From an uncultured Erysipelotrichaceae bacterium (GTDB taxonomy: Bacteria; Bacillota_I; Bacilli_A; Erysipelotrichales; Erysipelotrichaceae): a stretch of 32,000 nucleotides of DNA. Below, piece by piece: positions 10,640 to 32,000 of this stretch. The translations under genes and the position numbers were made by a program. The stretch is taken from contig CAYNZZ010000006.1 of assembly GCA_964401865.1 (NCBI GenBank), forward strand, positions 33,398 to 65,397, given 5' to 3'. The notes under the pieces are model-generated. The model made no database searches. It saw only the letters and a program-made list of their open reading frames with translations, and had not been told where the DNA came from. Each line of letters starts with the position of its first letter. Position 1 is the first letter of the stretch.

Positions 10640-11404
10640 TTATTTTATTCTTCTAGCCACGACTACAAAACGACCATTTTCCTTATGATAACTACATGTA
10701 GAAAGAGTTAGTATCTGGTCGCCATATTCAGCAGTAATGCCTGTATCGTATAATGAAGAACTAAGTGCTGCAGCAATATAATAATCAAAAGTATCAGGAT
10801 CACTCAAATCAGGATAATTATAATATCTGAAATATCCCACATCATAGGAAGTATATACTTCGCTATAAAACACGGACATTATTTCATATTCTCCCTTTTG
10901 TTCTAAGGTATCATATTTAATAGTCGGATGATTTTTAAAATAATTATAACTATCATAGTTTAATAGATAGCCAAACATCGAACCGTCCGCTTTAACATTA
11001 TGACCATATATTATTACATGATTACCATTTGGTGTACAACCATCAGATATGAATAAACTACCACTGAAAGCATATTTTTTATCAAAACCTCTTCGCATAT
11101 AATATTCCGGATTATTTGGAGTATACATTACCGGGTAGTCTAAACCAGTTCCTTCAATACTAATCCATCCTGCCATATCCTCATTTTGTTTGTGAAGTTC
11201 TTCATATACCATATCAAGAGCTAAATCAGCAGCAAAGGGCGCATCATCTCTAACATTTTTAACTAAATCGGCAATTTGGTCATTTGCTCGATGTTCTTTA
11301 ATTGTAAAATAATAGTCTTTCATTACGAAGAAAGCGAAAATTAAAAACAATGACAAAAATACAATCATTAAAATTTTTAATTTGATATCTCGTTTTGTTT
11401 TCAT
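10640..11404 (-). CDS. srtB: Class B sortase
   Basis: An N-terminal TM anchor, the His motif VIIYGHN, and the catalytic Cys motif LTLSTCSYHKENGRFVVVARRI. The start is set to the ATG at 11404 (MKTKRD) because the track's longer version runs through the upstream terminator hairpin. Confidence 0.8.
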   Translation of the reverse strand: MKTKRDIKLKILMIVFLSLFLIFAFFVMKDYYFTIKEHRANDQIADLVKNVRDDAPFAADLALDMVYEELHKQNEDMAGWISIEGTGLDYPVMYTPNNPEYYMRRGFDKKYAFSGSLFISDGCTPNGNHVIIYGHNVKADGSMFGYLLNYDSYNYFKNHPTIKYDTLEQKGEYEIMSVFYSEVYTSYDVGYFRYYNYPDLSDPDTFDYYIAAALSSSLYDTGITAEYGDQILTLSTCSYHKENGRFVVVARRIK

Positions 11405-11432
11405 ATTAAACAACCACCAATCTAAATATTTA

Positions 11433-11475
11433 AGAAAAAACTGTAAGTACAGAATTTTCCACACTTACAGTTTTT
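11433..11475 (-). terminator. Terminator/attenuator hairpin between the adhesin gene and srtB
   Basis: AACTGTAAGT (11439-11448) pairs with ACTTACAGTT (11463-11472) across a 14-nt loop, followed on the minus strand by TTTTTTCTT. Confidence 0.55.
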
Positions 11476-11480
11476 ATTTA

Positions 11481-19243: not shown

Positions 19244-20221
19244 TCATTTATTGATAAAATTAAATTTTTCAACATCTTTAATAGGGTAGCTAATCATTTC
19301 ATTTCCATCTAGATTCTCAGCATGCATATCAAGCGCATTAATTTGATGATTATTGTATGTAGTATAGTAATAAATACCCTTATCTAAGTTGCAACAAGAT
19401 GTATAAATAGTATATTCATATGCACCTTTTCTAACTTCGCAACAACCCTTTTGCTGCTCAACAGATGCAAGAATATGGAAAAACTGACTAACACTTTCCA
19501 TTTCATTATCGTAAGTAAAAGAATTGACTTTCGTAAATGCCGCCTTGATAAAGCGTGATTGCGAAGATAAATCACCCGGCAAACCAATGCCGCCCATTCC
19601 TCGACTATATATTTTTAGCGGTACTCCAAAATGATTTTCAGGATCCTTATTAGAAACATTAATATAATTATTCAAATTGAACATTTGATAATCAAATGGT
19701 GGATTATTAGTCAATATGCCAATTGTATTATCATAAATATTCAAGCCGTCTTTTGTTGCCTCAACCGTGATTGTTTCTCTGTTATCGGAAATTAACCAAT
19801 GCAAAGCGGCAATAGGAAGTTTATCACTATATGGTTCATCAAGCAAATTTATGCGTGCCAATAATCTTTTAACTTCTTCAATATTTGCGCATTGTCCTAA
19901 AACCCACGGAATAAACTCAAATTGAGTAATATTGTCTACATCATCATTTTCATTAAGCTTATTATATTTCGCATTACCAACAAAATTAAGCCCCGCCATA
20001 CCTAAGCCAGCCTCATTGATTGCATCATAAAATAATGGATCTTCATCTATAACACAAGCCATTCCGATTATCGAATAATGATTATCATTTAAACCAGCAT
20101 GTCTGAAATGAAACGGATATTTCCTAGGTGTGATTACAACTTTTTCACCATAAGAAAAATCATAATCTAAATTTCTTCCAAAATAAGCATCCTTTGAAAA
20201 ATAAGTCGCTGCAGTACACAT
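19244..20221 (-). CDS. bsh: Choloylglycine (bile salt) hydrolase, Ntn-hydrolase family
   Basis: The N-terminus is MCTAATYF...FGRNLD (Cys2 nucleophile, Arg/Asp pair). It is 325 aa with the typical blocks NEAGL and LTNNPPFDYQ. SD AAGAGGTGA. Confidence 0.9.
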   Translation of the reverse strand: MCTAATYFSKDAYFGRNLDYDFSYGEKVVITPRKYPFHFRHAGLNDNHYSIIGMACVIDEDPLFYDAINEAGLGMAGLNFVGNAKYNKLNENDDVDNITQFEFIPWVLGQCANIEEVKRLLARINLLDEPYSDKLPIAALHWLISDNRETITVEATKDGLNIYDNTIGILTNNPPFDYQMFNLNNYINVSNKDPENHFGVPLKIYSRGMGGIGLPGDLSSQSRFIKAAFTKVNSFTYDNEMESVSQFFHILASVEQQKGCCEVRKGAYEYTIYTSCCNLDKGIYYYTTYNNHQINALDMHAENLDGNEMISYPIKDVEKFNFINK

Positions 20222-20801: not shown

Positions 20802-21485
20802 CTATTTATTAATATCACTGGAAACGACCTTAGCATACTTGGAGAAGGTGTTTCTAGAGATATGATGCTTTCTTAAAAGTTCTGCAATGGAAATAGTCTT
20901 TTCACCAACATTCTGGCAAAGGTACTTCCTTATATCCTCTTTAAGTTCATCATTCATCTTATCTAAATGACCAATAGCTCTTCCTGGCTTTTTGTCAGAG
21001 GCAGCCATGCCATCTTTTGTACGCTTGGATAATGTCAATCTTTCCTGTTCTGCTCTATTGAGTTCAACAATCAGCAAAAGCTTAACAGTTGATTCTAAAG
21101 ATACCTGCGCAACAAGATCCTGCTGCTCAGCAACACGAAGCAATTCTTTAATATACGCAGTAGAAACTGTTGGATTATCAATGAAGACAAGCTCTATGCC
21201 CTTCTTCATTAAACTCATGTATTTGTCATAACCATTAAGGGCTTCTCTTGTAAACCTTGAGATGTCTTTAAAGACGATGGTATCTCCAACTCTCGCCAAT
21301 GCTTCCAGTTTTTGCCATTCTTTTCTGTTTTCAAAAGACTTGCCTGATTCATCTTCCATATAGCTTACAGAATAGATGATGTTATTATCCCTGGCATACT
21401 GCTCTAAAGCTTTTTGCTGTCTGGCATACTTCTGTTTCTGTCTTTCTTCTTTTGTTGATATTCTCATGTAAGCAAAATAAGCCAT
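20802..21485 (-). CDS. Small serine recombinase (resolvase/invertase family) with C-terminal HTH
   Basis: The N-terminus AYMRISTKE carries the catalytic Ser context. DISRFTRE is the conserved DRxxR-like block. The C-terminal HTH is ISIAELLRKHHISRNTFSKY. The start overlaps the upstream stop (TAATG). Confidence 0.8.
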   Translation of the reverse strand: MAYFAYMRISTKEERQKQKYARQQKALEQYARDNNIIYSVSYMEDESGKSFENRKEWQKLEALARVGDTIVFKDISRFTREALNGYDKYMSLMKKGIELVFIDNPTVSTAYIKELLRVAEQQDLVAQVSLESTVKLLLIVELNRAEQERLTLSKRTKDGMAASDKKPGRAIGHLDKMNDELKEDIRKYLCQNVGEKTISIAELLRKHHISRNTFSKYAKVVSSDINK

Positions 21486-22432
21486 TAGTCATGACCTCCC
21501 AGGAAATTCATGATCAATGTTACCATTGTTTCCTTCTCTTCTGGCCTGCTCTCTGCCACCATCAAAGTAATTGCCACTAAAGCACTATTAGAAATGACCT
21601 GGCTTCCATTTCTTCTTAATGCATTATTCTTATTTAAAAACTCAAGGAATATTGAAGCACCAATTCTCTTGCAGCCATCCGCAAAAGGGTGGTCCTTGAT
21701 AAGGAAATAGAGAAGATTGGCAGCCTTCTCTTCAATGCTTGGATATACTTCCGTACCAAAGACATTCTGATAAACTGCTTCCAAAATACCATTCAGTTTG
21801 CCCTTCTCCTTTTCAACGCCAAATACATCAGAGTTAAACTTCATAGAATCAATCAGTTTTCTGCATTCCTCATAGTTAAGACGATAAAGGGTATCATTGC
21901 CTTCTGGACGGTTTAAACTCTGATGATCATAGTCATCTAGAAGATCCAAGGCCTTTGTATATTCAATTACAACCTTATAGACATCTTCCCCTTCAAACTC
22001 TAGTGCAGAAGCCAGCATCTTGGACTGAATCTCAATTGTCTTATTCAAAGACTCGAGTCTTTTCTCGTTGATGGCATAACCCTTGAGAATGTAATCTTTC
22101 AAAACTGAACTTGCCCATCTTCTGAAGGCAATGCCCTGTTTTGACTTGACACGATATCCAACAGAAATGATCATATCCAAGTTATAATGTTCTACCATTC
22201 GAGTTACGTCTCTTGTTCCTTCAGCTTGAACTGTCGCAAATTTTGCGACAGTTGAAAGTTCCGCCTCTTCCTTAAGAGCATTGTTGATATGTTTACCTAT
22301 TGTTTTGATGTCTCTTCCGAATAATTGAGCCAACTGTTCACGATTTAGCCATACAGTTTCCTGCTTTGGATCAATCTGAACTTCTATTTCGAGTTCACCA
22401 TCTTTATAAATAACTATTTCATTTCTATCCAT
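21485..22432 (-). CDS. RhuM-family N-terminal domain fused to a Fic/Doc-like domain
   Basis: The N-terminus IVIYKDGELEIEVQIDPKQETVWLNREQLAQLFGRDIKTIGKHINN...YNLDMIISVGYRVKS is RhuM-family-like. The C-terminus has a Fic/Doc core motif, HPFADGCKRIG. Confidence 0.7.
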   Translation of the reverse strand: MDRNEIVIYKDGELEIEVQIDPKQETVWLNREQLAQLFGRDIKTIGKHINNALKEEAELSTVAKFATVQAEGTRDVTRMVEHYNLDMIISVGYRVKSKQGIAFRRWASSVLKDYILKGYAINEKRLESLNKTIEIQSKMLASALEFEGEDVYKVVIEYTKALDLLDDYDHQSLNRPEGNDTLYRLNYEECRKLIDSMKFNSDVFGVEKEKGKLNGILEAVYQNVFGTEVYPSIEEKAANLLYFLIKDHPFADGCKRIGASIFLEFLNKNNALRRNGSQVISNSALVAITLMVAESRPEEKETMVTLIMNFLGGHD

Positions 22433-22587: not shown

Positions 22588-22755
22588 TTTAGGCATTTTA
22601 AGCAACGTTTTGTGTTGGATGATGAGTATCATTAACTGAACGAATTTAACCGGTCAATTTTGGATCACTTTTCTCATTCTACAAAACGTTATGAAAATGA
22701 AACAGCATGCCATATCACGCCAATTCATTCCTTAGTCCAATCACAGATAAGTGTA

Positions 22756-22965
22756 TTATTGGTTTTCTGGAAGGACTTCCATAACATCATCTATACTACA
22801 TTCAAAATGTTTGCATATTTTGACCATTACTTCCATAGATACAATTTCATTCTTGCCAAGTTTTGCTAGAGTAGGACCACTGATTCCAACTTGCTTTGCA
22901 AACTGTGTTTTGCTTAATCCTTTATCAACGAGAAGTTTAAACAGATTGTTGTATTTGACATCCAT
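22756..22965 (-). CDS. XRE-family helix-turn-helix transcriptional regulator (69 aa)
   Basis: LSKTQFAKQVGISGPTLAKLGKNEIVSMEVMVKICKHF is a Cro/C1-type HTH. SD AAGGAG. It starts 11 nt after the DGQHR gene stop. Confidence 0.8.
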   Translation of the reverse strand: MDVKYNNLFKLLVDKGLSKTQFAKQVGISGPTLAKLGKNEIVSMEVMVKICKHFECSIDDVMEVLPENQ

Positions 22966-22976
22966 ATCCTGACTCC

Positions 22977-25283
22977 TTACAAAGTTAAAATGTTCATAAT
23001 CCAGTCATAGATAGACTTAACATAGCTGTATTCATCAACAGGAACACTGTAGCTATCTTTTGCAAGCTTATTATGGATAGAATTGACCTTAATAATCCAA
23101 TCTGTCTTAACATCTTTTCCGCCTTTTAACTTTTCTTCTTCAGGGCGAACAAAGGTATCTTCGAAATGCATCGACCAGTTATTACCATTCAATAAGATTG
23201 GCTTACATTCAGAGAACGGAACATAATCCCAAATTGGAATTTCTACATCTTCACCATCATTGCTAATTAGCTCATACATAGCCTCATCAGCAAGACCTTT
23301 TGCCTTTGTATAGATGTTCTTCGGTACTCCTTTGACTAACCAACTATCTCCGTAATAGTCTTGCAATCTTTCGGAAATAATTGACTTTACCTTGCTTTCA
23401 ATATCTTCAATCATTGCTTTAGTCTCGTCGTTGTAAATCTTCGTTTCATTTAACCAGTATTCCTCTAAACCAACCGGTTTGAAATCCGGTCTAGCGTCAG
23501 CGATTGCCTTTTGATATGCTCTCCAGAACCTAGTGTCTGCTCCACCACCAAAATAACCTCTTAAGTCTTTCTTTTGTTCAGCAGTCATTTTATTGATATA
23601 GTCCGATAGTGGCTTTAGATAATAACTTATCAAACCGAACATATCGTCTGCATCTTGTTTCTTTGGTTCGATCATTCCTTTGTCAACAAGCATGCACACA
23701 ACATCATCCAACACCCTAATTACAGCTTGCATGCCTCTATTCATTGTCAACATACCACTGTCTTTATCGCCCTTGTCCCATTCATCCAGACATGCCTCTC
23801 TGAGGTATAAAAGGCATTTTTCTAGGAAAGGATAGAAAAGATCACACGTCTCTTGATTTTGCCCACAATCAAAAGTTCCTTCTTTTTGAAGGACATTCTT
23901 TTTGCCATATGTATTGAAGAAATTGCTTTTCTTTAATGCAACTTGGATAGCTTCAACAGTAATACATCTTTCAGGCGTTACTTCATTTTCACCTATTACA
24001 ACTCTGCCATGTAAAGGAGATGTGGGTTCTTCGCCAAGCATCTGTGCAATTTTTGATCTTAGCGCCTGTCTCTGTTCACCTAAATCGCTCGATTCCCATA
24101 ACATATCTGCATTCAATGTTACACGCAATGACTTCGGAACAGCTTTTTGGTTTTCATTGATATCCATGAACAGCTTTATTTGTTCTGTTCTTTCCAAATC
24201 AACAAATGCAACGACAGGTATCGTGTTAGTTGAGGCATATTTAGAATCTGAGTAACCATAAAGACGATGTTGCCCATCAATGATATACGCAGATCTATAT
24301 CTCTTAGGAATATGTAAGACACCAATTTTAGATAAAGTTCCTTCTACTCTAGTAGATGATTGATCAAAAGTTAATCCCTTTCCGTTAGCGTCAATGCTGA
24401 TGATGATTGAGTTTGGGAAATACCCTCCATTGTCAATAAATGATTTAACATCTTGTAATCTTTTCTTCTTAATAATTCTTTGATAAGTAGGCATCATATT
24501 CTGGTTAGCTTCAGAGCGATGCAGCACATAGCCAATCTTTAATAATCTCTCCGGCTCAATCGAAAATGAGTAATATGTATATCCACCCATTTTTCCTTGA
24601 ATCGCAGGAACTCTGTCATCCATGTTTTTAATTTCCTGATTGGCAAATAGATTACCCAATAACTGGTATCTTGAACTTGAACCCAAATGTTTTGATAATT
24701 CTGAGTAGTACTCAACGGCAGAGTTATCAAAAAAGGTAATTCCATATTTATCAAGCTGAGCTAAGTCACGTCTATTTGTTATAAAGTTTCGTGATGCCCA
24801 GATAAATTTTATTTTTCTTCCTGGATATTGTTGGAGTATCTCCTTCCTCATGCCTTGTAGTTTGTTTCCGAAATCATTTATTTCCTCATAGAAGCTCTTT
24901 TCAACGACAACATCAGAAGCTTTACATACAACTGCCAGTATTGTCTCGTCATCCGCTGCGATAATATCAATGTTTTCCTTTAATTTTGGATCATGAAAAT
25001 CATAAGCAACCCTAACGCTTTCAAGAGAATTCATATTTGTAAAACCCATACTCAAAAAGAGTATCCATAGCTGATCTGTAAACTGTTCAATAGCTGGTTT
25101 TTCTTTTGAAACTGCAACAAACTTCGGATTCTTGAATTCCTTGGTTTTTTCCCAACCGAGGTCCACATATTTCGGAAGTTCAGATGCTAAGACCTTCTGG
25201 GTAACATCTTTCTTTTTTCTAGAATTCTTAATCGGCACTAAATCTTTTCCAGATACCATTACATCCCAATTAGTTCTTTCCAT
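22977..25283 (-). CDS. DGQHR-domain (DndB/DpdB-like, ParB/Srx-fold) protein with large N- and C-terminal extensions
   Basis: An exact DGQHR signature lies in SAYIIDGQHRLYGYS (codons at 24264-24278). At 768 aa it is roughly twice the length of a stand-alone DndB. Strong SD GAAGGAGG. The start overlaps the methylase gene by 14 nt. Confidence 0.75.
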   Translation of the reverse strand: MERTNWDVMVSGKDLVPIKNSRKKKDVTQKVLASELPKYVDLGWEKTKEFKNPKFVAVSKEKPAIEQFTDQLWILFLSMGFTNMNSLESVRVAYDFHDPKLKENIDIIAADDETILAVVCKASDVVVEKSFYEEINDFGNKLQGMRKEILQQYPGRKIKFIWASRNFITNRRDLAQLDKYGITFFDNSAVEYYSELSKHLGSSSRYQLLGNLFANQEIKNMDDRVPAIQGKMGGYTYYSFSIEPERLLKIGYVLHRSEANQNMMPTYQRIIKKKRLQDVKSFIDNGGYFPNSIIISIDANGKGLTFDQSSTRVEGTLSKIGVLHIPKRYRSAYIIDGQHRLYGYSDSKYASTNTIPVVAFVDLERTEQIKLFMDINENQKAVPKSLRVTLNADMLWESSDLGEQRQALRSKIAQMLGEEPTSPLHGRVVIGENEVTPERCITVEAIQVALKKSNFFNTYGKKNVLQKEGTFDCGQNQETCDLFYPFLEKCLLYLREACLDEWDKGDKDSGMLTMNRGMQAVIRVLDDVVCMLVDKGMIEPKKQDADDMFGLISYYLKPLSDYINKMTAEQKKDLRGYFGGGADTRFWRAYQKAIADARPDFKPVGLEEYWLNETKIYNDETKAMIEDIESKVKSIISERLQDYYGDSWLVKGVPKNIYTKAKGLADEAMYELISNDGEDVEIPIWDYVPFSECKPILLNGNNWSMHFEDTFVRPEEEKLKGGKDVKTDWIIKVNSIHNKLAKDSYSVPVDEYSYVKSIYDWIMNILTL

Positions 25284-26100
25284 CCTTTACCTCCTTCTCT
25301 GGTATGTTAGTGAATATGTATTCTTTTACTAACCCTCTTCTAGCGTTTCGGCCACCAATAACACTGTTTCTATTTTCGACTATCAGTCTTCCTTTGCTTG
25401 CAAATATATCAACAATTGTTTCGTGTGCCGCATTTGTCATAATGTAGTACGCTCCAACGCTATTTATATGGTCAATTAATTCCCCTAACCTTCTTTGATC
25501 GTCCATTGAGAATAATTTAGCGTTGTATTGAAGAAAGCCGTTTTTTACTTCCGCAACAACATATGGAGGATCAAGAAACACCAAATCTCCTTTTTTTATA
25601 TTCTTTTTTGAATCGGAAAAATCACCAGTACTAATTGTTGTGTTTTGTAGTTTACAACTTGCCCATTTTAATTTATCTATGTCGTGTGTATAATTTCGAT
25701 GCCCATACGGAACGTTGTATTTACCTTGACGATTGACGCGATATATTCCGTTAAACGACGTTGCGTTCAAGTAGATGAACTTTGCGGCTTTCTCACATAA
25801 AGTGTTTGGTTCAGATGATCGCATTGCATAATAGGCATCCTCTCCATTTTCATAGTTTTCTAAAACACCGGAAACACCATCTAAATCATCCCTTATTTGA
25901 ACATAAGCATTAATTAAATCCTCATTTATATCAGATAAATACGCTTGCTTATCTCGCTCTAATGAAAAGAAAATAGATGCACCACCTAAAAATGGTTCAA
26001 TATAATTATTAAACTCCAATCCATCGATTAGTTCTTTCACAAAAGGGATCAGCCATTTTTTCCCTCCGGCCCAACGCAAAAAAGAATGATTATTCATCAT
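25270..26100 (-). CDS. N6-adenine DNA methyltransferase, D12 class (Dam family)
   Basis: FLRWAGGKKWL and EPFLGGASIFF form the Dam-type SAM-binding region, and VFLDPPYV is catalytic motif IV (DPPY). 276 aa. Target sequence unknown. Confidence 0.85.
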   Translation of the reverse strand: MMNNHSFLRWAGGKKWLIPFVKELIDGLEFNNYIEPFLGGASIFFSLERDKQAYLSDINEDLINAYVQIRDDLDGVSGVLENYENGEDAYYAMRSSEPNTLCEKAAKFIYLNATSFNGIYRVNRQGKYNVPYGHRNYTHDIDKLKWASCKLQNTTISTGDFSDSKKNIKKGDLVFLDPPYVVAEVKNGFLQYNAKLFSMDDQRRLGELIDHINSVGAYYIMTNAAHETIVDIFASKGRLIVENRNSVIGGRNARRGLVKEYIFTNIPEKEVKDGKN

Positions 26101-27683
26101 TAATACCCCCTTACTAACTCAAGCAGATAATACTTAGCCCTTGTGTAGGCTATGTAATTCATGTTATCGGTTGTACTTGGTGAATGTATATATACAACCA
26201 TATCTGCTTCCAATCCTTTATATTCAAGAATTGATGCAACCCTGATTTCAGAACCAGAGGAAATTTTGTCACCAACGAAAGACCATTTCGCAATGCCGTT
26301 CTTGTATTGTTCCATAAATTCTTCCTTATTATCAACAATCAAAATCATAGAAGAATTAGGCAAATGCTCATCGTCAATATACCTTTTAAACAGGATTTCT
26401 AAACGTTGAGTCATTAAATTATGACTGTTGATGGTTTCTGTTTGTGGTGTAGGACCTTCTACAGGGTTTGATACCATATCAGTACCTAAATTTGTTTTCT
26501 CTGCTGTCCAATTATAAATGTTGGATGTATTTCGTATATTTTCGTGAAGAAGGAATGGGGGAGTAGAAATTCCAAAACCCTCACCAAAACTATCCTGTCT
26601 TAATATCTGAACATCATCATAAAAAACTCCAAGAATAGATTTTTCACTATCTTTAAGAAGATGTTTTATTGTCTTTGCGCATTCTTCAGAAAAGTCCTGA
26701 GCCTCATCAACAAATATTGCATCGTATTTATTTAGGTCATTTTTTAGATTGCTATAAACCCCAATATAATACGGGCCTTGCAGCATCTCAAAATCAGTTA
26801 TTATTTCTTCAAATAACGACCTTATATCTCTTACCTCAACGCTATTCTCTGTTATTTCTCTTAAATATTCCGCAAGACATTTCGAAGCGCATAAGAAAAG
26901 TGTCTTTTTTCCAAAAGAAGCCTCTTTTTCGGCCATTTTCTTAGCAATCCATGTTTTCCCGGTTCCAGCTCCACCTTTCATATAAAATTGGCGAATATTT
27001 TGGAGCAAATATACATAATTGTCTTGGACTCTATTTATTACGTTAAGTTGTTGGTCTTTGTATTGTACTAAAGCTCCTGCAGCAGCACTTATGGCCAATC
27101 GTTCTCTTACTAGTTCAAGAAAGGTTTTGTGTTGATTTGCAGGATAATACCAGCCGTATGGTTTCTTGTTGTAGAATTTAAAAATTCTTTTTATCTTACT
27201 GTAAAGGTTGTTTAAATCGTGTTGATCGATTGTAATCTCACGATGTCTATTATCTATTGCGTCTTCTTCGCCAATAGCGTGAAAAGGAAAGACCGCTGCA
27301 GCACCAAAAATGCCAGGGTAATCAATATAATTACGATTAGAATACTGATTTTTGAAATAATACATGCTTTCTTCTGCTTGATCATATGGAGATCTGTGTA
27401 GCTTTCTATCTCCATGAAGAGTATCCCCCACATACCAGACATTGTCTTTAATTGATAAATTACTGCCCCCCTTGACCTCTAAACAAAGAAAACCATATTC
27501 CGACGAAGTCACAACAAAATCCGATTCTGACTTAACAATCTTTCCATCTTTAATATCCGTCCATTTAACCGAATAAAAAACTTCAAAAGAATCTGGCAAT
27601 TGATTTTTCAATTCATAGTAAACTAATCTTTCCGAATCGGTTGGCATGTATTCTGCAATACTTTTGGGATACATAATAGCCAT
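26100..27683 (-). CDS. NERD-domain nuclease fused to a compact SF1 (UvrD/RecD-like) helicase/ATPase
   Basis: The N-terminal NERD pattern is SERLVYYELKNQLP...ESDFVVTSSEYGFLCLEVKGG. Walker A is GGAGTGKT and Walker B is AIFVDEAQDF. Late SF1 motifs are YKGLEADMVVYI and YIAYTRAKYYL. Confidence 0.75.
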   Translation of the reverse strand: MAIMYPKSIAEYMPTDSERLVYYELKNQLPDSFEVFYSVKWTDIKDGKIVKSESDFVVTSSEYGFLCLEVKGGSNLSIKDNVWYVGDTLHGDRKLHRSPYDQAEESMYYFKNQYSNRNYIDYPGIFGAAAVFPFHAIGEEDAIDNRHREITIDQHDLNNLYSKIKRIFKFYNKKPYGWYYPANQHKTFLELVRERLAISAAAGALVQYKDQQLNVINRVQDNYVYLLQNIRQFYMKGGAGTGKTWIAKKMAEKEASFGKKTLFLCASKCLAEYLREITENSVEVRDIRSLFEEIITDFEMLQGPYYIGVYSNLKNDLNKYDAIFVDEAQDFSEECAKTIKHLLKDSEKSILGVFYDDVQILRQDSFGEGFGISTPPFLLHENIRNTSNIYNWTAEKTNLGTDMVSNPVEGPTPQTETINSHNLMTQRLEILFKRYIDDEHLPNSSMILIVDNKEEFMEQYKNGIAKWSFVGDKISSGSEIRVASILEYKGLEADMVVYIHSPSTTDNMNYIAYTRAKYYLLELVRGY

Positions 27684-27685
27684 AT

Positions 27686-29590
27686 TTACATCTCCCAGAA
27701 GCCAACTTTTATTTCTTTGGCTCCATCAATTGAATATAGATACTTTCTACCTAGTTCCAGATTAAAATGGTTACATGAGATTTCAGGGAGAATAAGGCAT
27801 GCGCTACATGCAGTATCGTCTCTTTCTGTGCAAATAGGATCAAAAACACAGTTCTTTGATTCGTCAAATGTTTTCTTTAAGTAATATAAATATCTCGATT
27901 CCGCCATGCCAGATAATGCACCTAATGGGATACCTTGGCTTGTCTGTGCATAAATAAAGATGCTAGCAGTTTCTACAATTATTATTTCGGTTAATGAATT
28001 GCTAGACAAACCACTTATTTCACCTGCAGATTCGATAAACGCATGTGACATAGAATGTAAAAGCGAATAAACGTTTTTTGTAATTTCCTCGCTGTTATCG
28101 ATGCTGCCAAACATCGGAATAGCATCACTATGAACATATTCTGCAAACCATTTCTTTACAGAGATTTCGTCATCTAGATCTGGTACCATTTCTTCTCTGA
28201 TGACACCATTTGCTAATAACCATTCAATGATTTTCCTTTGGTCAATCTCAAATAAAATACCTTCAGTATCTAACCTAGAGCCAAAAACTAGATTAGTGTT
28301 TGAATTCTTGCTCCTGTCATATGCGTTTAGTTTCAACCTACAATTTTTATTAGTAGAATTGCTAGGATCAACTGATCTTCTAGTATATCCATACGTACAA
28401 TTTACGATTTGTGAGTCACAGGTAACTTGCATATTCTTGATACCAAGTTTTTTATTCATATCATACACTTCATCCACAGAATCAATGAATTCCATATCCA
28501 ATTGTCTCTGGATGGAGTCCTCTAAAGTGATGACTCGTTTAGCATCTTTTATCGTGTTGTATTGCATCAACTTAAAAGAGAAATTATTGATCCATTCATT
28601 ATATGCGTTCGGATCATCTGATTTTCTTTTAGAAAATAGTTCATCACATGCAGTGACATAACGTTCAACACCTTTATCATTGGATTTGGTTTTCATTATC
28701 TGTGCAACCGTTTCATCAAATTTCTCAGGTGCAATAAGTCCAATAGCGATCAACCCATTAGCTTGATTTTCAGCCTCTTTTCTTACTGACTCGTCTTTAT
28801 ATTCGTCGCTAAAAGCAAGCTCAACATTATTTAATATGAAATCAAAATTTGATGGCGTAATTTTGTCGAACCATTTAGATACTAAAACTTTTTGGGCGTC
28901 TAATCCTTTTTCATAAAACTTTCCACTTTGTGTATCAACTAGATTAATAATTCTTAATGTGAATGGTTTGTAATTCTTTCCTGAGCTAGCATTATCTGGA
29001 CGTAGATGTGAATTACAATTCGGACAAACTTGGATAAATTCAGCTGTTTTTTCACTATTCCCATTTCTATATATCATCTTATATGGGTTATCATTTGGAC
29101 GATATTTGAAATCTTTGACATTTTTAACATAGGGAATCTTGATTGGCTGGGCATAGCCACATTCGCATGTATAAATCATCTGTAGCTGCTTAACAGAATT
29201 CTTTTTGCATTCTGGACATCTCCATGTATATTTATCAACAGCGCCTGCACTTTTCTTTTCAAACGCGGTTCCGCATGAACCGCAATAAAAAACCAAAGGC
29301 GAAATTTCTCCCATAATATCTGGAGTGTTTTCAATACAAGCGGTCTCTACTATTTCAAATGATGGGGTGTTTTCTTGCAAATTGAATGCGGATATATCAC
29401 CATTTCTATTCTCAAACAATCTTATTTGTCGCTTGATTTCACTGTCTATGAACTTGTCGTAAATGCCTTCCATCTTTCTATAATTCCAATTTTTGATCTT
29501 GGCAGTTACCACTTCACTTGTATCATTCCTCTCAGAGATCCACATTTCCGGAAGGAATCTATATACTGCCTGATTTTTGCTTCTTTTCAT
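27686..29590 (-). CDS. DUF1998-domain zinc protein (DISARM DrmB-like)
   Basis: The C-terminal Cys cluster is CVFDPICTERDDTACSACLILPEISCNHFNLELGRKYL, a DUF1998/MZB-type signature. N-terminal CxxC pairs are CGSC...CPEC and CEC...CPNC. It starts 10 nt after the helicase stop, with SD AAGGAGAGG. Confidence 0.7.
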   Translation of the reverse strand: MKRSKNQAVYRFLPEMWISERNDTSEVVTAKIKNWNYRKMEGIYDKFIDSEIKRQIRLFENRNGDISAFNLQENTPSFEIVETACIENTPDIMGEISPLVFYCGSCGTAFEKKSAGAVDKYTWRCPECKKNSVKQLQMIYTCECGYAQPIKIPYVKNVKDFKYRPNDNPYKMIYRNGNSEKTAEFIQVCPNCNSHLRPDNASSGKNYKPFTLRIINLVDTQSGKFYEKGLDAQKVLVSKWFDKITPSNFDFILNNVELAFSDEYKDESVRKEAENQANGLIAIGLIAPEKFDETVAQIMKTKSNDKGVERYVTACDELFSKRKSDDPNAYNEWINNFSFKLMQYNTIKDAKRVITLEDSIQRQLDMEFIDSVDEVYDMNKKLGIKNMQVTCDSQIVNCTYGYTRRSVDPSNSTNKNCRLKLNAYDRSKNSNTNLVFGSRLDTEGILFEIDQRKIIEWLLANGVIREEMVPDLDDEISVKKWFAEYVHSDAIPMFGSIDNSEEITKNVYSLLHSMSHAFIESAGEISGLSSNSLTEIIIVETASIFIYAQTSQGIPLGALSGMAESRYLYYLKKTFDESKNCVFDPICTERDDTACSACLILPEISCNHFNLELGRKYLYSIDGAKEIKVGFWEM

Positions 29591-29600
29591 GTACCTCTCC

Positions 29601-32000
29601 TTAATTTATTTTTATTTCAATCTGTTCTTCTGTGTCTCTCAAACTTCTCATTGGTTTCTTATTGCCTTTTGAGAATTTTGCGATTACATCTGATAGGAAC
29701 TCATCTTTAGTGAAATTTCCTGTCTGAATACCAGTAAGAATATTAGTCGCTTCTTCATTAATTATTTCTGCATAAGCAATAGACAATTTTTCCTGGCTAT
29801 TACATCCATAAATTCCAATTAACTTTTCAACCACATCATCAACTCTGATTTTTCCATCGGCAAGTAACTTCTTGACTTTTGTTGCAAAGTATAAATTATC
29901 TTCGCCAGTCAAAACCGTATAATACTGCATCAATAAACCAGATAATAGGCCCGGCAATGTACTGTAAATAGCATTTTTTGCCCATCTATTAATCGGAACT
30001 GACTCTACTAAATCATCTTTATTCTGGTGGAACACGACGAAATTCTTGAGGTATGACCTATCTCTTACTCTCATTAGTCTGATGATATCTATAACAATTC
30101 CGGTGTACTTTCTGCCAGTTCTTGAATACGCCTGGATATACTCGGCATTATTATTTGGCATTCCAAAGAAATACATAATGTTAAAAGAATCTTCATCAAC
30201 ACCATGCGAAATAGTGCTTGTTGCCAACAACAAATTGGTGCTTTCAACATTCTTTCGATTAGCTTGAATATTAAACAGCGTTTGTCGAACAGATTGGAAG
30301 TCCGTGTCACTTGTCATCTGACTAATTACAAATTTAGGAACATTTTTGGCCTCTAGGAAGTTATTGCCCTGATTCTGAAATGCATTTTCCAATTCCATGG
30401 CATCTTGTTTCCTGTTGTTATAAACAAGCTCAATCCAGTAATCAAACAGCTTTTCTTTAAGTTCTTCTTCTGAACCATTAAATCCTTTTTCCTGTAAATC
30501 TTTTAATACAGAATTTGTATTCTTCATCATGTAATGGATTAATAGCCTCATAAAATAAACCGATTCCCACATTCCATCAGTGATTGAACGACCATATGGA
30601 GCATATCCTAACAAGATTCTTGAAATATCGTTTCCGTCGGTGTAGGAATAAAAATCTTCATCTGATTTTGTTGACGGATATTCACAAGGGAATCTTCTTC
30701 CCTGCATATGATACAGGTTGAGAATATGATCTTTGTACATGGAAATTGTTGCCGTAGCACCTATAAAACGAATCTGTTTCTGTTGACTCTTAGGAACAAG
30801 ATTTTTTGCATAATAACTCATAAATGACTCGTAATGCGAATCGAAAGTACCTAAGCTTTCCTTAACAAGATGCATTTCATCCTGAATAAATAATGTTGGA
30901 ATAGGATCCTTTAGAACGCCCACATCTTCTAAGGCGTCTCTGTTTAAACAACTTGAGCACGTACATTTTCCAGTGGCAGAAAAGCCATGAATCTTACACT
31001 TTTTCTTTACTTGTCCAAAAAGCATTTTGAATTCATTGGTCGTGCCTAACATAGCCATCTTGTCAATCGTACTAACCACAATAGATGGCAAATAACGATA
31101 GATTTCGCTATCCACAATAAGCAACGGTAACACTCCTGCTTTACAGTCAGGATTGTCACAAACATGTTCTAGTTTCCACGTACTCTTGTTAAATCGAACA
31201 TTAACCATTTTTTTGCCACAGCACGGGCATGTATCGATAAATCTATAATATTCATTTAACGTATCTTGATCGCTCTCAAGAATTAAGTTTGTGTCTTTGC
31301 CAGCGCCTCTATCGCTTAATTTCTCATGTTCGTTAATTCTGTTTGGTGTGTTTTCTTTGCCCACAAAGAAACCAACAGAAAATGGATTTGTCAGAGACAA
31401 ATCGCTGTTATCCTTAACGATATTTGCTTTCATTACGATGTTTAATACTCTGTCTAACTGTTGAACCGCCAATAAACGCAAAGGATACTTAAGAATTGCT
31501 GTGATTCCTTCGTCTTTGCCTCTTAAACGATCGAAGAACATAGCGAAAACGCTTATGCCCAAGAATGCCTCTGTCTTTCCGCCACCTGTTGGGAAATATA
31601 AAAGATTTGCGATTTCATTATCAGCTTCTTTTATAGTCGTATCATCTTTATATTCACTTCGTATGATTTCACAAATCATCGATACTATAAATACTATCTG
31701 GAATAAACGCCATCCAACTATTGGCCTTTGATTATTGCCGAGCTTGGTCATAAAGGTTTGGTTGGTAAATACAAACGCACGTTTTACATAATCTTTGTAC
31801 TTAATCTGATCAATACCCTTTCTGAAACGTTTAATTTCTCTTTGGTATTCCTCTAACGACTCTTTGAACTTTGCTTTGGCTGCAGGCGATAATGTATGAG
31901 TATTCTTAAATTCTTTTTCACACTCGTTATAGTCAGATATCATCTCATCATATATAAAAGTCAAATTTGTAACTGGATCTTCTATAAGTTTTTCGAACAG
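29601..32000 (-). CDS. SF2 DExH-box helicase (DISARM DrmA-like), 5'-truncated by the window edge
   Basis: Motif I YFPTGGGKTEAFLG, Ia PLRLLAVQQ, II FIQDEMHLV, III IGATATIS and V/VI LLATSTISHGVDE...YIQAYSRTGRK. The reading frame has no stop between 31964 and 32000 (LFEKLIEDPVTN precedes the track's TTG), so the true start is outside the window. Confidence 0.75.
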   Translation of the reverse strand: MFEKLIEDPVTNLTFIYDEMISDYNECEKEFKNTHTLSPAAKAKFKESLEEYQREIKRFRKGIDQIKYKDYVKRAFVFTNQTFMTKLGNNQRPIVGWRLFQIVFIVSMICEIIRSEYKDDTTIKEADNEIANLLYFPTGGGKTEAFLGISVFAMFFDRLRGKDEGITAILKYPLRLLAVQQLDRVLNIVMKANIVKDNSDLSLTNPFSVGFFVGKENTPNRINEHEKLSDRGAGKDTNLILESDQDTLNEYYRFIDTCPCCGKKMVNVRFNKSTWKLEHVCDNPDCKAGVLPLLIVDSEIYRYLPSIVVSTIDKMAMLGTTNEFKMLFGQVKKKCKIHGFSATGKCTCSSCLNRDALEDVGVLKDPIPTLFIQDEMHLVKESLGTFDSHYESFMSYYAKNLVPKSQQKQIRFIGATATISMYKDHILNLYHMQGRRFPCEYPSTKSDEDFYSYTDGNDISRILLGYAPYGRSITDGMWESVYFMRLLIHYMMKNTNSVLKDLQEKGFNGSEEELKEKLFDYWIELVYNNRKQDAMELENAFQNQGNNFLEAKNVPKFVISQMTSDTDFQSVRQTLFNIQANRKNVESTNLLLATSTISHGVDEDSFNIMYFFGMPNNNAEYIQAYSRTGRKYTGIVIDIIRLMRVRDRSYLKNFVVFHQNKDDLVESVPINRWAKNAIYSTLPGLLSGLLMQYYTVLTGEDNLYFATKVKKLLADGKIRVDDVVEKLIGIYGCNSQEKLSIAYAEIINEEATNILTGIQTGNFTKDEFLSDVIAKFSKGNKKPMRSLRDTEEQIEIKIN

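What the first reader, a model, noticed from the sequence alone, without database searches (positions are those of the whole stretch)
22977..25283. 768-aa DGQHR protein: a DndB-like core flanked by two uncharacterised domains
The exact DGQHR signature sits at about residue 336-340. About 230 residues lie upstream of the core. They include IDIIAADDETILAVVCKAS, which loosely resembles a restriction-endonuclease-like beta-strand pair, although the usual acidic residue of (D/E)xK is not evident. About 250 residues lie downstream of the core. They include IEDIESKVKSIISERLQDYYGDSWLVKGVPKNIY, which resembles the helix-W-P pattern I associate with Swt1-like HEPN-type C-terminal modules. DndB acts as a regulator of its modification genes, and DpdB is an ATPase partner of a DNA-modifying enzyme. 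A double-size version overlapping a Dam gene by 14 nt suggests a direct functional partnership with the methylase, for example targeting, regulation or sensing.
Basis: partly seen in the sequence, partly recalled or inferred. Interest (0 to 1): 0.65.

Follow-up and report, generated by a model that had tools for sequence, protein, structure and literature searches.

The report
Dead-nuclease DGQHR protein in DISARM-like operon
The 768-residue protein is a real three-part fusion (restriction-nuclease fold, DndB-type nucleotide-binding core, HEPN RNase fold) from a widespread family that almost always sits next to a Dam methylase, but in this lineage both nuclease active sites are lost and the gene pair sits inside a DISARM-like phage-defence operon.

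Summary
The ORF at 22977..25283 (-) encodes 768 aa, has DGQHR at residues 336-340, and overlaps the Dam gene by 14 nt.

- **Fold.** The flanks are confidently folded domains (AF2 pLDDT 92), not disorder.
- **N-terminus.** It has a PD-(D/E)xK restriction-endonuclease fold.
- **C-terminus.** It is a Swt1-like HEPN domain, recognisable through homologues.
- **Family.** It is large (at least 500 clusters at 50% identity, many phyla). Dam was adjacent in 72 of 80 genomic loci (3 others lacked upstream flank), so the pair is a two-gene, R-M-like cassette.
- **Catalytic motifs.** 120 of 123 diverse members keep E..D..ExK and/or RNxxxH. All 120 members of the window's clade (at least 72% identity) have lost both; the window has T69/D106/V119/K121 and H737..K742. 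The DGQHR, QR and FxxxN motifs stay intact.
- **Context.** Only this clade lies in a conserved operon: UvrD-like helicase, DrmA, DrmB, NERD-SF1 helicase, Dam, DGQHR protein.

Inferred mechanism: an NTP-binding DNA or methylation-state sensor/adaptor whose cleavage function has passed to the intact NERD helicase-nuclease and DrmAB. It is not DndB or DpdB proper. I rate it a new variant of known kinds, of moderate-to-high interest.

The parts
22977..25283 (-). 768-aa DGQHR-domain protein (whole ORF including the stop codon)
   Evidence: ORF list. TIGR03187 at 7.5e-49. AF2 model with pLDDT 92.2 and pTM 0.80.
24612..25283 (-). Residues 1-224: N-terminal PD-(D/E)xK restriction-endonuclease-fold domain. 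The core alpha-beta-beta-beta-alpha-beta spans about residues 64-185. The catalytic tetrad is eroded (T69, D106, V119, K121).
   Evidence: Secondary structure of the model. PDB Foldseek top hits are Cdn1, AF1548, Card1, VC1899, NucS/EndoMS, McrC and Can2. The family consensus is E69/D106/E119/K121. Family members hit Pfam Hjc, Card1_endonuc, NERD and Mrr_cat. The window protein has a weak Hjc hit at residues 89-161.
23694..24611 (-). Residues 225-530: DGQHR/DndB-type ParB-like (NTP-binding) core. The Y267-Q268-R269, D336-G-Q-H-R340 and F372..N376 motifs are intact.
   Evidence: Family-library hits. Every invariant column of the family alignment lies at residues 207-379 (a smaller alignment, adds G469). 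Foldseek hits to ParB/Noc and to viral DndB-like, GmrSD_N and ParB-like proteins down to E=2.4e-9.
24264..24278 (-). DGQHR pentapeptide (residues 336-340)
   Evidence: Position confirmed. The motif is DGQHR in 242 of 243 full-length family members and DGQQR in the other one.
23433..23693 (-). Residues 531-617: helical linker bundle with a conserved LRxxxGxxG...FxPxGLxE motif
   Evidence: Models and alignments.
22980..23432 (-). Residues 618-768: Swt1-like HEPN-fold domain. The Rx4H motif is eroded (H737-N-K-L-A-K742 where the family has R-N-x-x-x-H).
   Evidence: Column counts and alignment. PF18731 matches 17 of 64 homologues, mapping to about residues 628-759. Structure support is weak only: yeast Swt1 C-terminal domain 4pqz ranks 6th at E=2.2.
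25270..26100 (-). Dam-family (D12 class) N6-adenine DNA methyltransferase with the DPPY motif present. It overlaps the DGQHR gene by 14 nt.
   Evidence: Pfam MethyltransfD12 at 1.4e-46. TIGR00571 at 5.5e-56, above its cutoff. Sequence.
26100..27683 (-). NERD nuclease domain fused to an SF1 helicase. The NERD motif is intact (E18, D55, E69-V-K71), as are Walker A and B.
   Evidence: Pfam NERD and helicase families. PADLOC RTasNERD-Hel at 1.8e-45. Sequence.
27686..29590 (-). DrmB-like (DUF1998-type, zinc-ribbon/Cys-rich) protein
   Evidence: PADLOC DrmB at 9e-48. NCBIfam DrmB_fam gives 78 bits, below its 240-bit cutoff.
29601..32000 (-). DrmA-like DExH helicase. Its N-terminus is cut off by the window end.
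   Evidence: PADLOC DrmA at 2.3e-136. NCBIfam DISARM_DrmAS at 1e-101, but below the equivalog cutoff. Full-length orthologues of 1126-1133 aa occur in L001-L009.
22756..22965 (-). 69-aa Cro/C1-type HTH gene, 11 nt after the DGQHR stop codon and followed by a terminator-like hairpin at 22703-22722. It is the operon's last gene here but is not conserved at this position in related loci.

Best explanation
**Anatomy (shown).** The protein has four modules:
- a PD-(D/E)xK restriction-endonuclease fold (residues 1-224);
- a DGQHR/DndB-type ParB-like nucleotide-binding core (225-530);
- a helical linker (531-617);
- a Swt1-like HEPN fold (618-768).

**Family (shown, role inferred).** It belongs to a large family spread across phyla. 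The gene almost always lies directly downstream of, and often overlaps, a Dam-class methyltransferase gene. Nearly all members keep an intact DNase motif (E..D..ExK), an intact RNase motif (RNxxxH), or both. I therefore read the ancestral pair as a two-gene, R-M-like cassette. Dam marks self DNA, and the fusion protein is the restriction/effector subunit. By analogy with DpdB, DndB, SspE and GmrSD, its ParB-like core would act as the NTP-dependent switch or DNA sensor.

**This clade (shown).** The Dam-DGQHR pair is embedded in a conserved, tightly spaced operon: UvrD-like helicase, DrmA, DrmB, NERD-SF1 helicase, Dam, DGQHR protein. Every sampled clade member has lost the catalytic residues of both nuclease heads. 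The folds and all DGQHR-core motifs remain conserved.

**Mechanism (inferred).** Here the protein no longer cuts with its REase or HEPN heads. It most likely works as an NTP-binding sensor or adaptor for DNA or methylation state. It would link Dam marking to the DISARM-like motor (DrmAB plus the UvrD-like helicase). The intact NERD helicase-nuclease would be the cutter, filling the role that the PLD nuclease DrmC has in canonical DISARM.
For: **Fold.** The full-length AF2 model has pLDDT 92.2 and pTM 0.80, with a canonical REase topology at residues 64-185. The top PDB Foldseek hits are PD-(D/E)xK nucleases plus ParB/Noc. Viral-library hits are DndB-like, GmrSD_N and ParB-like proteins.

**Family profiles.** Of 64 diverse members, 64 hit DndB, 17 HEPN_Swt1, 9 Hjc, 4 Card1_endonuc, 4 NERD and 1 Mrr_cat. 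The HEPN_Swt1 hits map to about residues 628-759.

**Motif census.**
- 123 diverse full-length members: 53 keep both motifs, 41 keep REase only, 26 keep HEPN only, 3 keep neither.
- Window clade: 120 of 120 keep neither.
- DGQHR is present in 242 of 243 (the other has DGQQR).

**Relaxed constraint at the former active sites.** Positions 119 and 737 rank 15th and 11th most variable of 768 within the clade, while the domains as a whole stay conserved. dN is 0.10-0.26 per domain against saturated dS. The deepest operon-linked branch, L009, still has D..E-C-H, which suggests erosion followed recruitment.

**Context.**
- Dam lies upstream on the same strand in 66 of 80 loci, downstream in 4 and divergent in 2.
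- Neighbours beyond Dam are not conserved.
- Dam and DGQHR distances correlate: Mantel r=0.50, with 0 of 1000 permutations reaching it.
- DrmA, DrmB, NERD-helicase and UvrD-like genes occur only in the loci at 70% identity or more. All 10 such loci with enough upstream flank have them.
- Genes in the window are spaced by -14, -1, +2 and +10 nt.
- The NERD catalytic motif is intact.

**Literature.** DpdB is an ATPase needed for DpdA-mediated DNA modification (PMC10164549; PMC12839542 as read). A DndB-like protein binds ATP and GTP (PMC12704722). DrmC is often absent from DISARM operons and is dispensable (PMC9142583).
Against: - No biochemical or genetic data exist for any family member.
- The sensor/adaptor role and any contact with Dam, DrmAB or the NERD helicase are inference from gene order and motif loss.
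- The link between operon capture and double motif loss rests on a single clade, so it is one evolutionary event.
- ParB/Srx-fold domains can themselves nick DNA or hydrolyse NTPs (PMC12839542). The protein may therefore still be an enzyme through its DGQHR core.
- The window protein keeps D106 and K121, so residual or non-canonical REase activity is not excluded.
- The window protein itself gives no Pfam HEPN hit. Foldseek on the C-terminal model found nothing significant.
- The Dam target sequence is unknown. GATC is only mildly depleted, with observed/expected 0.60.
Confidence: 0.5

Rival explanations
1. The protein is still an active restriction endonuclease (and/or RNase) partnered with Dam, as in an ordinary Type II-like R-M pair. 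That pair merely sits beside an independent DrmAB/helicase system in a defence island.
For: The family-wide Dam adjacency and intact nuclease motifs in 120 of 123 diverse members fit an R-M pair. The window protein keeps D106 and K121. Defence genes do cluster by chance in islands; L002 has unrelated systems downstream.
Against: All 120 clade members lack both E..D..ExK and Rx4H, and the former catalytic positions are among the most variable in the clade. The window protein lacks both acidic residues, E69 and E119. The six-gene order and tight spacing are conserved in all 10 related loci with enough flank, and double motif loss is confined to that clade.
Confidence: 0.12
2. The protein is a modification accessory, like DpdB for DpdA. 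Its ParB-like NTPase would load Dam onto DNA or stimulate it, so the protein belongs to the marking half of the system, not the sensing or restriction half.
For: The best defence-library hit is DpdB at 1.9e-24. DpdB's ATPase activity is required for DpdA to insert preQ0 into DNA (PMC10164549). The gene is translationally coupled to Dam in most loci. The DGQHR motifs are invariant.
Against: Dam-class enzymes are known to work alone (general knowledge). Conserved DNase and RNase heads in the wider family point to an effector, not a helper. The DpdB score of 81.7 bits is far below the equivalog cutoff of 300.
Confidence: 0.18
3. The protein is a DndB-like, NTP-modulated transcriptional repressor. 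It would tune expression of Dam or the operon, using the dead nuclease fold as a DNA-binding domain.
For: DndB is reported as an ATP-dependent repressor of the dnd operon (PMC4507180; PMC12704722). Catalytically dead nuclease folds are often kept as DNA-binding modules (general knowledge).
Against: The protein is not DndB: TIGR03233 gives 39.6 bits against a cutoff of 328, and there are no dnd genes nearby. The gene is last in the operon and is 768 aa with three large conserved domains. Most relatives carry active nuclease motifs. Separate small HTH genes accompany the operon in this window and in two related loci.
Confidence: 0.1
4. The gene is a decaying remnant: a restriction gene that lost function while the Dam gene persists as an orphan methylase.
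For: Both active sites are eroded, and the former catalytic positions vary freely.
Against: Full-length ORFs of 753-769 aa are kept in the 120 listed clusters of the clade. dN of 0.10-0.26 lies far below saturated dS in every domain. The invariant motifs of the core are retained. The AF2 model is confident throughout.
Confidence: 0.05

Closest known systems
DGQHR-domain proteins DndB (Dnd phosphorothioation) and DpdB (Dpd 7-deazaguanine system)
   Same: The ParB-like core is the same, with the QR, DGQHR and FxxxN motifs. TIGR03187 is matched above its cutoff. The genes are linked to a DNA-modifying enzyme. DpdB and DndB are reported to bind or hydrolyse NTP.
   Different: This protein is twice the size, with an added N-terminal REase fold and a C-terminal Swt1-like HEPN fold. 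Its partner is a Dam methyltransferase, not DndACDE or DpdA. Scores are far below both equivalog cutoffs: DndB 39.6 against 328 bits, DpdB 81.7 against 300 bits.
ParB (Saro_3948)-type fusion to Swt1-like HEPN, listed in the HEPN survey of Anantharaman et al. 2013 (PMC3710099, Table 1)
   Same: It has a ParB-like domain fused to a Swt1-clade HEPN and is described as 'mostly active', which fits the census here. A full-length family member lies on Novosphingobium aromaticivorans plasmid pNL1.
   Different: I could not verify that Saro_3948 is that pNL1 gene. In the text I read, the survey does not mention the N-terminal REase domain, the near-universal Dam linkage, or the dead-nuclease clade in a DrmAB operon.
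DISARM (DrmA, DrmB, DrmC plus DrmMI/MII, with or without DrmD/DrmE)
   Same: DrmA and DrmB homologues (PADLOC 2.3e-136 and 9e-48) sit in one operon with a DNA methyltransferase.
   Different: There is no PLD nuclease DrmC in the operon. The methylase is a small Dam/D12 enzyme. The extra genes are a UvrD-like helicase, a NERD-SF1 helicase and the DGQHR protein. NCBIfam DrmA and DrmB scores are below the curated cutoffs.
DUF262 (DGQQR) defence nucleases: GmrSD/BrxU and SspE
   Same: A ParB-like NTPase head is fused to a nuclease domain and acts on DNA according to its modification state. One family member hits GmrSD_N, and viral GmrSD_N proteins are structural matches.
   Different: Those proteins carry an HNH/DUF1524 nuclease and (from general knowledge) are triggered by modification: modified DNA for GmrSD, phosphorothioate sensing for SspE. 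This family carries REase and HEPN heads and is paired with a protective-looking Dam.
Nhi-like / NERD-helicase defence proteins (neighbouring gene)
   Same: The neighbouring gene has a NERD nuclease plus an SF1 helicase (PADLOC RTasNERD-Hel 1.8e-45, Nhi 1.7e-11). It is a plausible cutter for the system.
   Different: This comparison concerns the neighbour, not the DGQHR protein. Nhi acts alone, whereas this gene is embedded in a six-gene operon.

Membership tests
DGQHR domain (TIGR03187 / Pfam DndB PF14072 superfamily) | Profile match above the curated cutoff | tested here: met
   TIGR03187 gives 166.9 bits against a cutoff of 58.85, covering residues 227-528 and profile positions 1-275 of 276. 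PF14072 gives 66.8 bits against 29.1.
DGQHR domain (TIGR03187 / Pfam DndB PF14072 superfamily) | QR pair, DGQHR pentapeptide and FxxxN motif (as defined in PMC4619093) | tested here: met
   Q268-R269, D336-G-Q-H-R340 and F372..N376 are present and are invariant or nearly invariant in the family.
DndB proper (TIGR03233 equivalog) | Equivalog-level score and dndCDE neighbours | tested here: not met
   The score is 39.6 bits against a cutoff of 328. None of the ORFs scanned in the window hit a Dnd family.
DpdB proper (NF041060 equivalog) | Equivalog-level score and a dpdA (TGT) neighbour | tested here: not met
   The score is 81.7 bits against a cutoff of 300. No DpdA/TGT-type gene was found in the operon here or in L001-L009.
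PD-(D/E)xK restriction-endonuclease fold | Alpha-beta-beta-beta-alpha-beta core fold | tested here: met
   The AF2 secondary-structure order at residues 64-185 fits. Foldseek hits to AF1548, Card1, Cdn1, NucS, McrC and Can2 have probability 0.84-1.00. The tool does not report aligned coordinates, so assigning these hits to the N-terminus rests on topology plus the family's Pfam hits.
PD-(D/E)xK restriction-endonuclease fold | Catalytic D...(D/E)xK residues, plus the helix glutamate | tested here: not met
   The window has T69, D106, V119 and K121. In the 70-member alignment the family has E69 (55 of 70), D106 (65 of 70), E119 (58 of 70) and K121 (50 of 70). All 120 clade members are degenerate.
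Swt1-like HEPN (PF18731) | Profile match | tested here: inconclusive
   The window protein has no hit even at E<=10. Seventeen of 64 homologues hit, the best at 1.2e-7. P0130 scores 27.8 bits against the gathering cutoff of 27.5. Homology is transferred through a full-length alignment. Foldseek support is not significant.
Swt1-like HEPN (PF18731) | Rx4-6H catalytic motif | tested here: not met
   The window has H737-N-K-L-A-K742. In the 70-member alignment the family has R737 (51 of 70) and H742 (49 of 70).
DISARM | DrmA helicase and DrmB (DUF1998) core pair | tested here: met
   PADLOC gives DrmA 2.3e-136 and DrmB 9e-48. NCBIfam scores are below the curated cutoffs: DrmAS 341.7 against 950 bits, DrmB_fam 78 against 240 bits. 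These are therefore divergent members.
DISARM | PLD-domain nuclease DrmC in the operon | tested here: not met
   There is no PLD protein among the operon genes here or in L001-L009. PMC9142583 notes that DrmC is often missing and is dispensable.
DISARM | Associated DNA methyltransferase (DrmMI or DrmMII) | tested here: inconclusive
   A methyltransferase is present, but it is a 276-aa Dam/D12 enzyme. It matches generic Type II and orphan MTase models, and no DrmM model was among the 20 hits listed.
Type II-like restriction-modification pair | Adjacent methyltransferase and nuclease genes inherited together | tested here: met
   Dam is adjacent in 72 of 80 loci. Mantel r=0.50, with 0 of 1000 permutations reaching it.
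Type II-like restriction-modification pair | Nuclease cleaves unmethylated target, and methylation protects | not testable with these tools
   This needs biochemistry or genetics. In this clade the catalytic residues are absent.

The most novel reading that the evidence does not exclude
The Dam + REase-DGQHR(ParB NTPase)-HEPN pair is a previously unrecognised, phylum-spanning class of NTP-gated two-gene restriction-modification system with DNase and RNase heads. The window's clade would then define a third kind of DISARM. In it, a catalytically dead copy of that restriction protein has been repurposed as the methylation-state sensor that licenses DrmAB and a NERD helicase-nuclease.
Probability: 0.35. 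Interest if true: 0.75.

Novelty: new variant of a known kind. Interest (0 to 1): 0.6.

Why it matters
How DISARM tells self from non-self, and what does the cutting when DrmC is absent, are open questions (PMC9142583). This operon offers a natural variant with three useful features:
- the methylase comes with a dedicated ParB-like partner;
- the nuclease is a NERD helicase;
- the partner's own nuclease heads have been switched off.

That makes a sensor role directly testable.

The clade looks abundant. The homology search found more than 4,181 family hits, and one clade cluster alone has 1,142 member sequences. The related genomes are mostly animal-gut or rumen Clostridia. It may therefore shape phage and plasmid traffic in that niche.

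The wider family gives matched active and dead versions for experiments. It has at least 500 clusters at 50% identity in Bacillota, Bacteroidota, Actinomycetota, Pseudomonadota and others. It would add a new architecture to the ParB-fold NTPase switches now being explored (PMC12704722).

Tried and rejected
- **PDB sequence searches.** Searches with the protein and with a 70-sequence profile found nothing meaningful.
- **Foldseek on the C-terminal model (530-768).** No significant match. Swt1 (4pqz) and a HEPN toxin (7bxo) appear only at E>2. The HEPN call therefore rests on sequence profiles of homologues and on the family motif.
- **dN/dS per domain.** Synonymous sites are saturated (dS defined for 1-2 of 21 pairs), so only dN and a qualitative statement of purifying selection can be given.
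- **The small HTH gene after the DGQHR gene.** It is not a conserved member at that position. Homologues lie upstream of the UvrD-like gene in L001 and L010.
- **Conserved third partners of the two-gene cassette.** Clustering 368 neighbour ORFs gave only small clade-specific groups.
- **Phage carriage.** Only 7 near-full-length matches turned up in 2.9 million viral contigs.
- **Literature.** Searches for DGQHR, DndB-like, and DrmA+DrmB+DndB found no description of this operon. The first search was too broad to be useful.
- **DndB, DpdB and canonical DISARM.** All considered and rejected as family assignments because defining features were tested and not met.
- **GATC depletion as a clue to Dam specificity.** The value (observed/expected 0.60) is too weak, and other palindromes are lower still.
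- **DrmAB/NERD-helicase modules with other modification modules.** I could not survey these. The listing tools return only the best 120 hits, which this abundant clade would fill.
Full report
**1. The observation**

The ORF at 22977..25283 on the minus strand is 768 aa. It starts at an ATG 7 nt after an AGGAGG ribosome-binding site. The upstream Dam ORF is 25270..26100, so the overlap is 14 nt.

The DGQHR core is unambiguous:
- NCBIfam TIGR03187 covers residues 227-528 at E=7.5e-49, well above its cutoff.
- Pfam DndB gives 2.3e-18.
- PADLOC DpdB gives 1.9e-24.

About 225 residues lie before the core and about 240 after it.

**2. What the flanks are**

A phmmer scan of 1.84 billion cluster representatives found 2,108 relatives, 500 of them at E<=1e-30. 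Nearly all of the best 150 are full-length proteins of 745-810 aa, aligned end to end down to about 26% identity. The three-part architecture is therefore the family norm, not a local fusion.

An AlphaFold2 model built on 70 diverse members is confident throughout: pLDDT 92.2, pTM 0.80, and only residues 264-266 below 50. This rules out disordered flanks.

*N-terminal domain.* Residues 64-185 have the classic restriction-endonuclease order alpha-beta-beta-beta-alpha-beta. The best PDB Foldseek matches to the model are PD-(D/E)xK nucleases, followed by ParB/Noc for the core. They are:
- Cdn1;
- AF1548, with TM-score 0.50 normalised to the target and rmsd 2.7 A;
- Card1, VC1899, NucS/EndoMS, McrC and Can2.

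The viral structure library returns DndB-like, GmrSD_N and ParB-like nuclease proteins (E down to 2.4e-9) and some 'restriction endonuclease' entries.

*Pfam on family members.* Scanning 64 family members one by one gave DndB in 64, HEPN_Swt1 in 17 (best 1.2e-7), Hjc in 9, Card1_endonuc in 4, NERD in 4 and Mrr_cat in 1. The HEPN_Swt1 hits cover about residues 628-759. One of them (P0130, 27.8 bits) just passes Pfam's gathering score of 27.5.

*C-terminal domain.* The window protein gives no Pfam hit for its C-terminal part. A separate model of residues 530-768 (pLDDT 92.9) found nothing significant in the PDB. Yeast Swt1 C-terminal domain ranks 6th at E=2.2. The HEPN assignment therefore rests on homology through the family alignment, not on structure.

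**3. Catalytic motifs**

The family consensus contains a textbook REase tetrad. In the 70-member alignment it reads E69 (55 of 70), D106 (65), E119 (58) and K121 (50), as QIDVxAxDDExxxxxECK. It also contains a textbook HEPN motif, LNxIRNxxxH, with R737 in 51 of 70 and H742 in 49 of 70.

The window protein has T69, D106, V119 and K121, and H737-N-K-L-A-K742. Both sites are eroded.

A census of 243 full-length proteins makes this a property of the clade:

| Group | Both motifs | REase only | HEPN only | Neither |
|---|---|---|---|---|
| 123 diverse members | 53 | 41 | 26 | 3 |
| 120 members at >=72% identity to the window | 0 | 0 | 0 | 120 |

One of the three 'neither' cases in the diverse group has E-C-R, a conservative K-to-R change. 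DGQHR is present in 242 of the 243 proteins, and the other has DGQQR.

Within the clade, the former catalytic positions 119 and 737 are the 15th and 11th most variable of 768 positions. The domains as a whole stay conserved: mean column entropy is 0.91 for the N-domain and 0.74 for the HEPN domain, against 2.5 and 2.9 in the wider family.

Non-synonymous divergence among seven clade genes is 0.26 (N-domain), 0.10 (core), 0.15 (linker) and 0.25 (HEPN). Synonymous sites are saturated, so the folds are kept under purifying selection, although a ratio cannot be computed.

The QR, DGQHR and FxxxN motifs that define the DGQHR domain (PMC4619093) are all intact. Every invariant column of the 70-member alignment lies at residues 207-379.

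**4. Gene neighbourhood**

In the window the minus-strand operon reads as follows:
- DrmA-like helicase, 29601 to beyond 32000, cut by the window end;
- DrmB-like protein, 27686..29590;
- NERD + SF1 helicase, 26100..27683;
- Dam, 25270..26100;
- the DGQHR protein;
- a 69-aa HTH gene, 22756..22965, followed by a terminator-like hairpin.

Spacings are +10, +2, -1, -14 and +11 nt.

Contigs carrying close homologues show the same order, preceded by a UvrD-like SF1 helicase. All 10 related loci with enough upstream sequence have the full set.

A scan of one genome per species returned 80 loci from Bacillota, Bacteroidota, Actinomycetota, Pseudomonadota and other phyla. Dam placement in those loci was:

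| Dam position relative to the DGQHR gene | Loci |
|---|---|
| Immediately upstream, same strand | 66 |
| Immediately downstream | 4 |
| Divergent | 2 |
| No upstream flank available | 3 |
| No adjacent Dam detected (one has a Dam further off) | 5 |

Genes beyond Dam are not conserved. Dam and DGQHR-protein distances correlate: Mantel r=0.50, with 0 of 1000 permutations reaching that value. The Dams nearest to the window clade's Dam belong to the nearest DGQHR relatives. The pair therefore travels as a cassette and entered the DrmAB operon together.

DrmA, DrmB, the NERD helicase and the UvrD-like gene were found only in the loci at 70% identity or more.

The order of events suggested by the alignment is:
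- HEPN loss in the Bacillota relatives at 53-59% identity, which are still EDEK two-gene cassettes.
- Capture into the DrmAB operon.
- REase erosion. The deepest operon-linked branch, L009, still has D..E-C-H, and the crown group shows many different residues.

**5. Mechanism**

*Shown:* the fold assignments, the motif states, the Dam linkage, and the clade-specific operon.

*Inferred for the family:* a two-gene R-M-like system. Dam marks self DNA and the fusion protein is the effector, with DNase and RNase heads. This fits the 'two-pronged' R-M plus HEPN idea of Anantharaman et al. 2013 (PMC3710099). The ParB-like core would be an NTP-dependent switch or sensor. The analogies are DpdB's ATPase role (PMC10164549), ATP/GTP binding by a DndB-like protein (PMC12704722), and DUF262 heads in GmrSD-type enzymes (PMC4619093).

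*Inferred for this window:* cutting by the REase and HEPN heads has been given up. The protein would act as an NTP-binding sensor or adaptor for DNA or methylation state, for a DISARM-like machine. The candidate nuclease of that machine is the NERD domain of the neighbouring helicase, whose E18/D55/E69-x-K71 motif is intact. Canonical DISARM uses the PLD nuclease DrmC, which is often absent and is dispensable (PMC9142583).

*Caveat:* ParB/Srx folds can themselves nick DNA or hydrolyse nucleotides. 'Dead nuclease heads' therefore does not mean 'no enzymatic activity'.

**6. Comparison with known families**

- **DGQHR domain.** The protein is a bona fide DGQHR-domain protein.
- **DndB and DpdB.** It is not either. 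Equivalog scores are 39.6 against 328 bits and 81.7 against 300 bits, and there are no dnd or dpd neighbours.
- **DISARM.** The operon has the DrmA/DrmB core but lacks DrmC, uses a Dam-class methylase, and adds three genes not in the DISARM definition. I call it DISARM-like.
- **Prior listing.** A ParB-Swt1-like-HEPN fusion, 'ParB (Saro_3948), mostly active', appears in Table 1 of the 2013 HEPN survey. A full-length family member lies on Novosphingobium aromaticivorans plasmid pNL1. I could not verify that the two are the same gene.
- **Literature.** I found no paper in the held library describing the REase domain, the Dam linkage, or the DrmAB-linked dead-nuclease clade.

**7. Verdict**

The work here adds three points:
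- The family is a Dam-coupled cassette that occurs across phyla.
- Both nuclease heads are specifically and completely eroded in this clade.
- That clade alone is wired into a conserved DrmAB/NERD-helicase operon.

Novelty is a new variant of known kinds (R-M and DISARM-like defence). Interest is 0.6. Confidence in the anatomy is about 0.9, and in the sensor/adaptor mechanism about 0.4-0.5.

Noticed in passing
window 22756-22965 (-), hairpin 22703-22722: A 69-aa Cro/C1-type HTH gene (Pfam HTH_26, 1.4e-15) starts 11 nt after the DGQHR stop codon and is followed by a terminator-like hairpin. In related loci L001 and L010 its homologues lie at the other end of the operon, upstream of the UvrD-like helicase. 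It may be a mobile regulator of the system.
   Followed up: partly
window 20802-22432 (-): A RhuM + Fic/DOC protein (PADLOC candidate PDC-S23, 1.8e-129) overlaps a serine resolvase gene by 1 nt, just downstream of the defence operon. This suggests a defence island or mobile-element boundary.
   Followed up: no
window 29601-32000 (-): The DrmA-like gene runs off the window end. Orthologues are 1126-1133 aa and are preceded by a 650-850-aa UvrD-like helicase that is probably present just outside the window.
   Followed up: partly
window 10640-17738 (-) and 19244-20221 (-): A 2085-aa protein with Listeria-Bacteroides repeats lies next to a sortase gene, and a choloylglycine (bile-salt) hydrolase gene is nearby. 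This fits a gut Bacillota host (35% GC).
   Followed up: no
whole window: GATC is moderately under-represented (82 observed against 137 expected, ratio 0.60). CGCG and GGCC are lower still, so this says little about the Dam target.
   Followed up: partly
L088 8996-13140: One of the rare family members outside the window clade with both motifs degenerate (P0126, 43% identity) sits after its Dam. It is followed by a RelA/SpoT-like gene, with a 1611-aa DEAD+UvrD helicase and an HNH-HIT gene upstream. This may be a second case of effector delegation.
   Followed up: partly
L086 5992-12490 (N. aromaticivorans pNL1): A 769-aa family member with no annotated adjacent Dam lies next to an ATP-binding protein, a radical SAM protein and a second, short (336-aa) DGQHR protein. 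This may be a different modification context.
   Followed up: no
L055, L068, L075, L080: A subclade, mostly Bacteroidota, has an extra gene of about 300 aa between Dam and the DGQHR gene. Another conserved gene of about 293 aa lies downstream. In L085 homologues of both genes lie downstream of the DGQHR gene on the opposite strand. Neither gene was annotated.
   Followed up: no
L002/L003/L004 12338-18677: Downstream of the operon in Pseudoflavonifractor-type contigs lie a WYL protein, a PLD + SF2 helicase + DUF3427 protein, a NUDIX-methyltransferase and an HNH protein. This is a dense defence island that is not conserved in the window.
   Followed up: no
L010 455-3484: In a Staphylococcaceae MAG, a UvrD-like ORF abuts a DGQHR ORF that matches only residues 150-768 (83% identity), with no DrmA, DrmB or Dam between them. 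This could be a rearranged or decayed copy of the operon.
   Followed up: no
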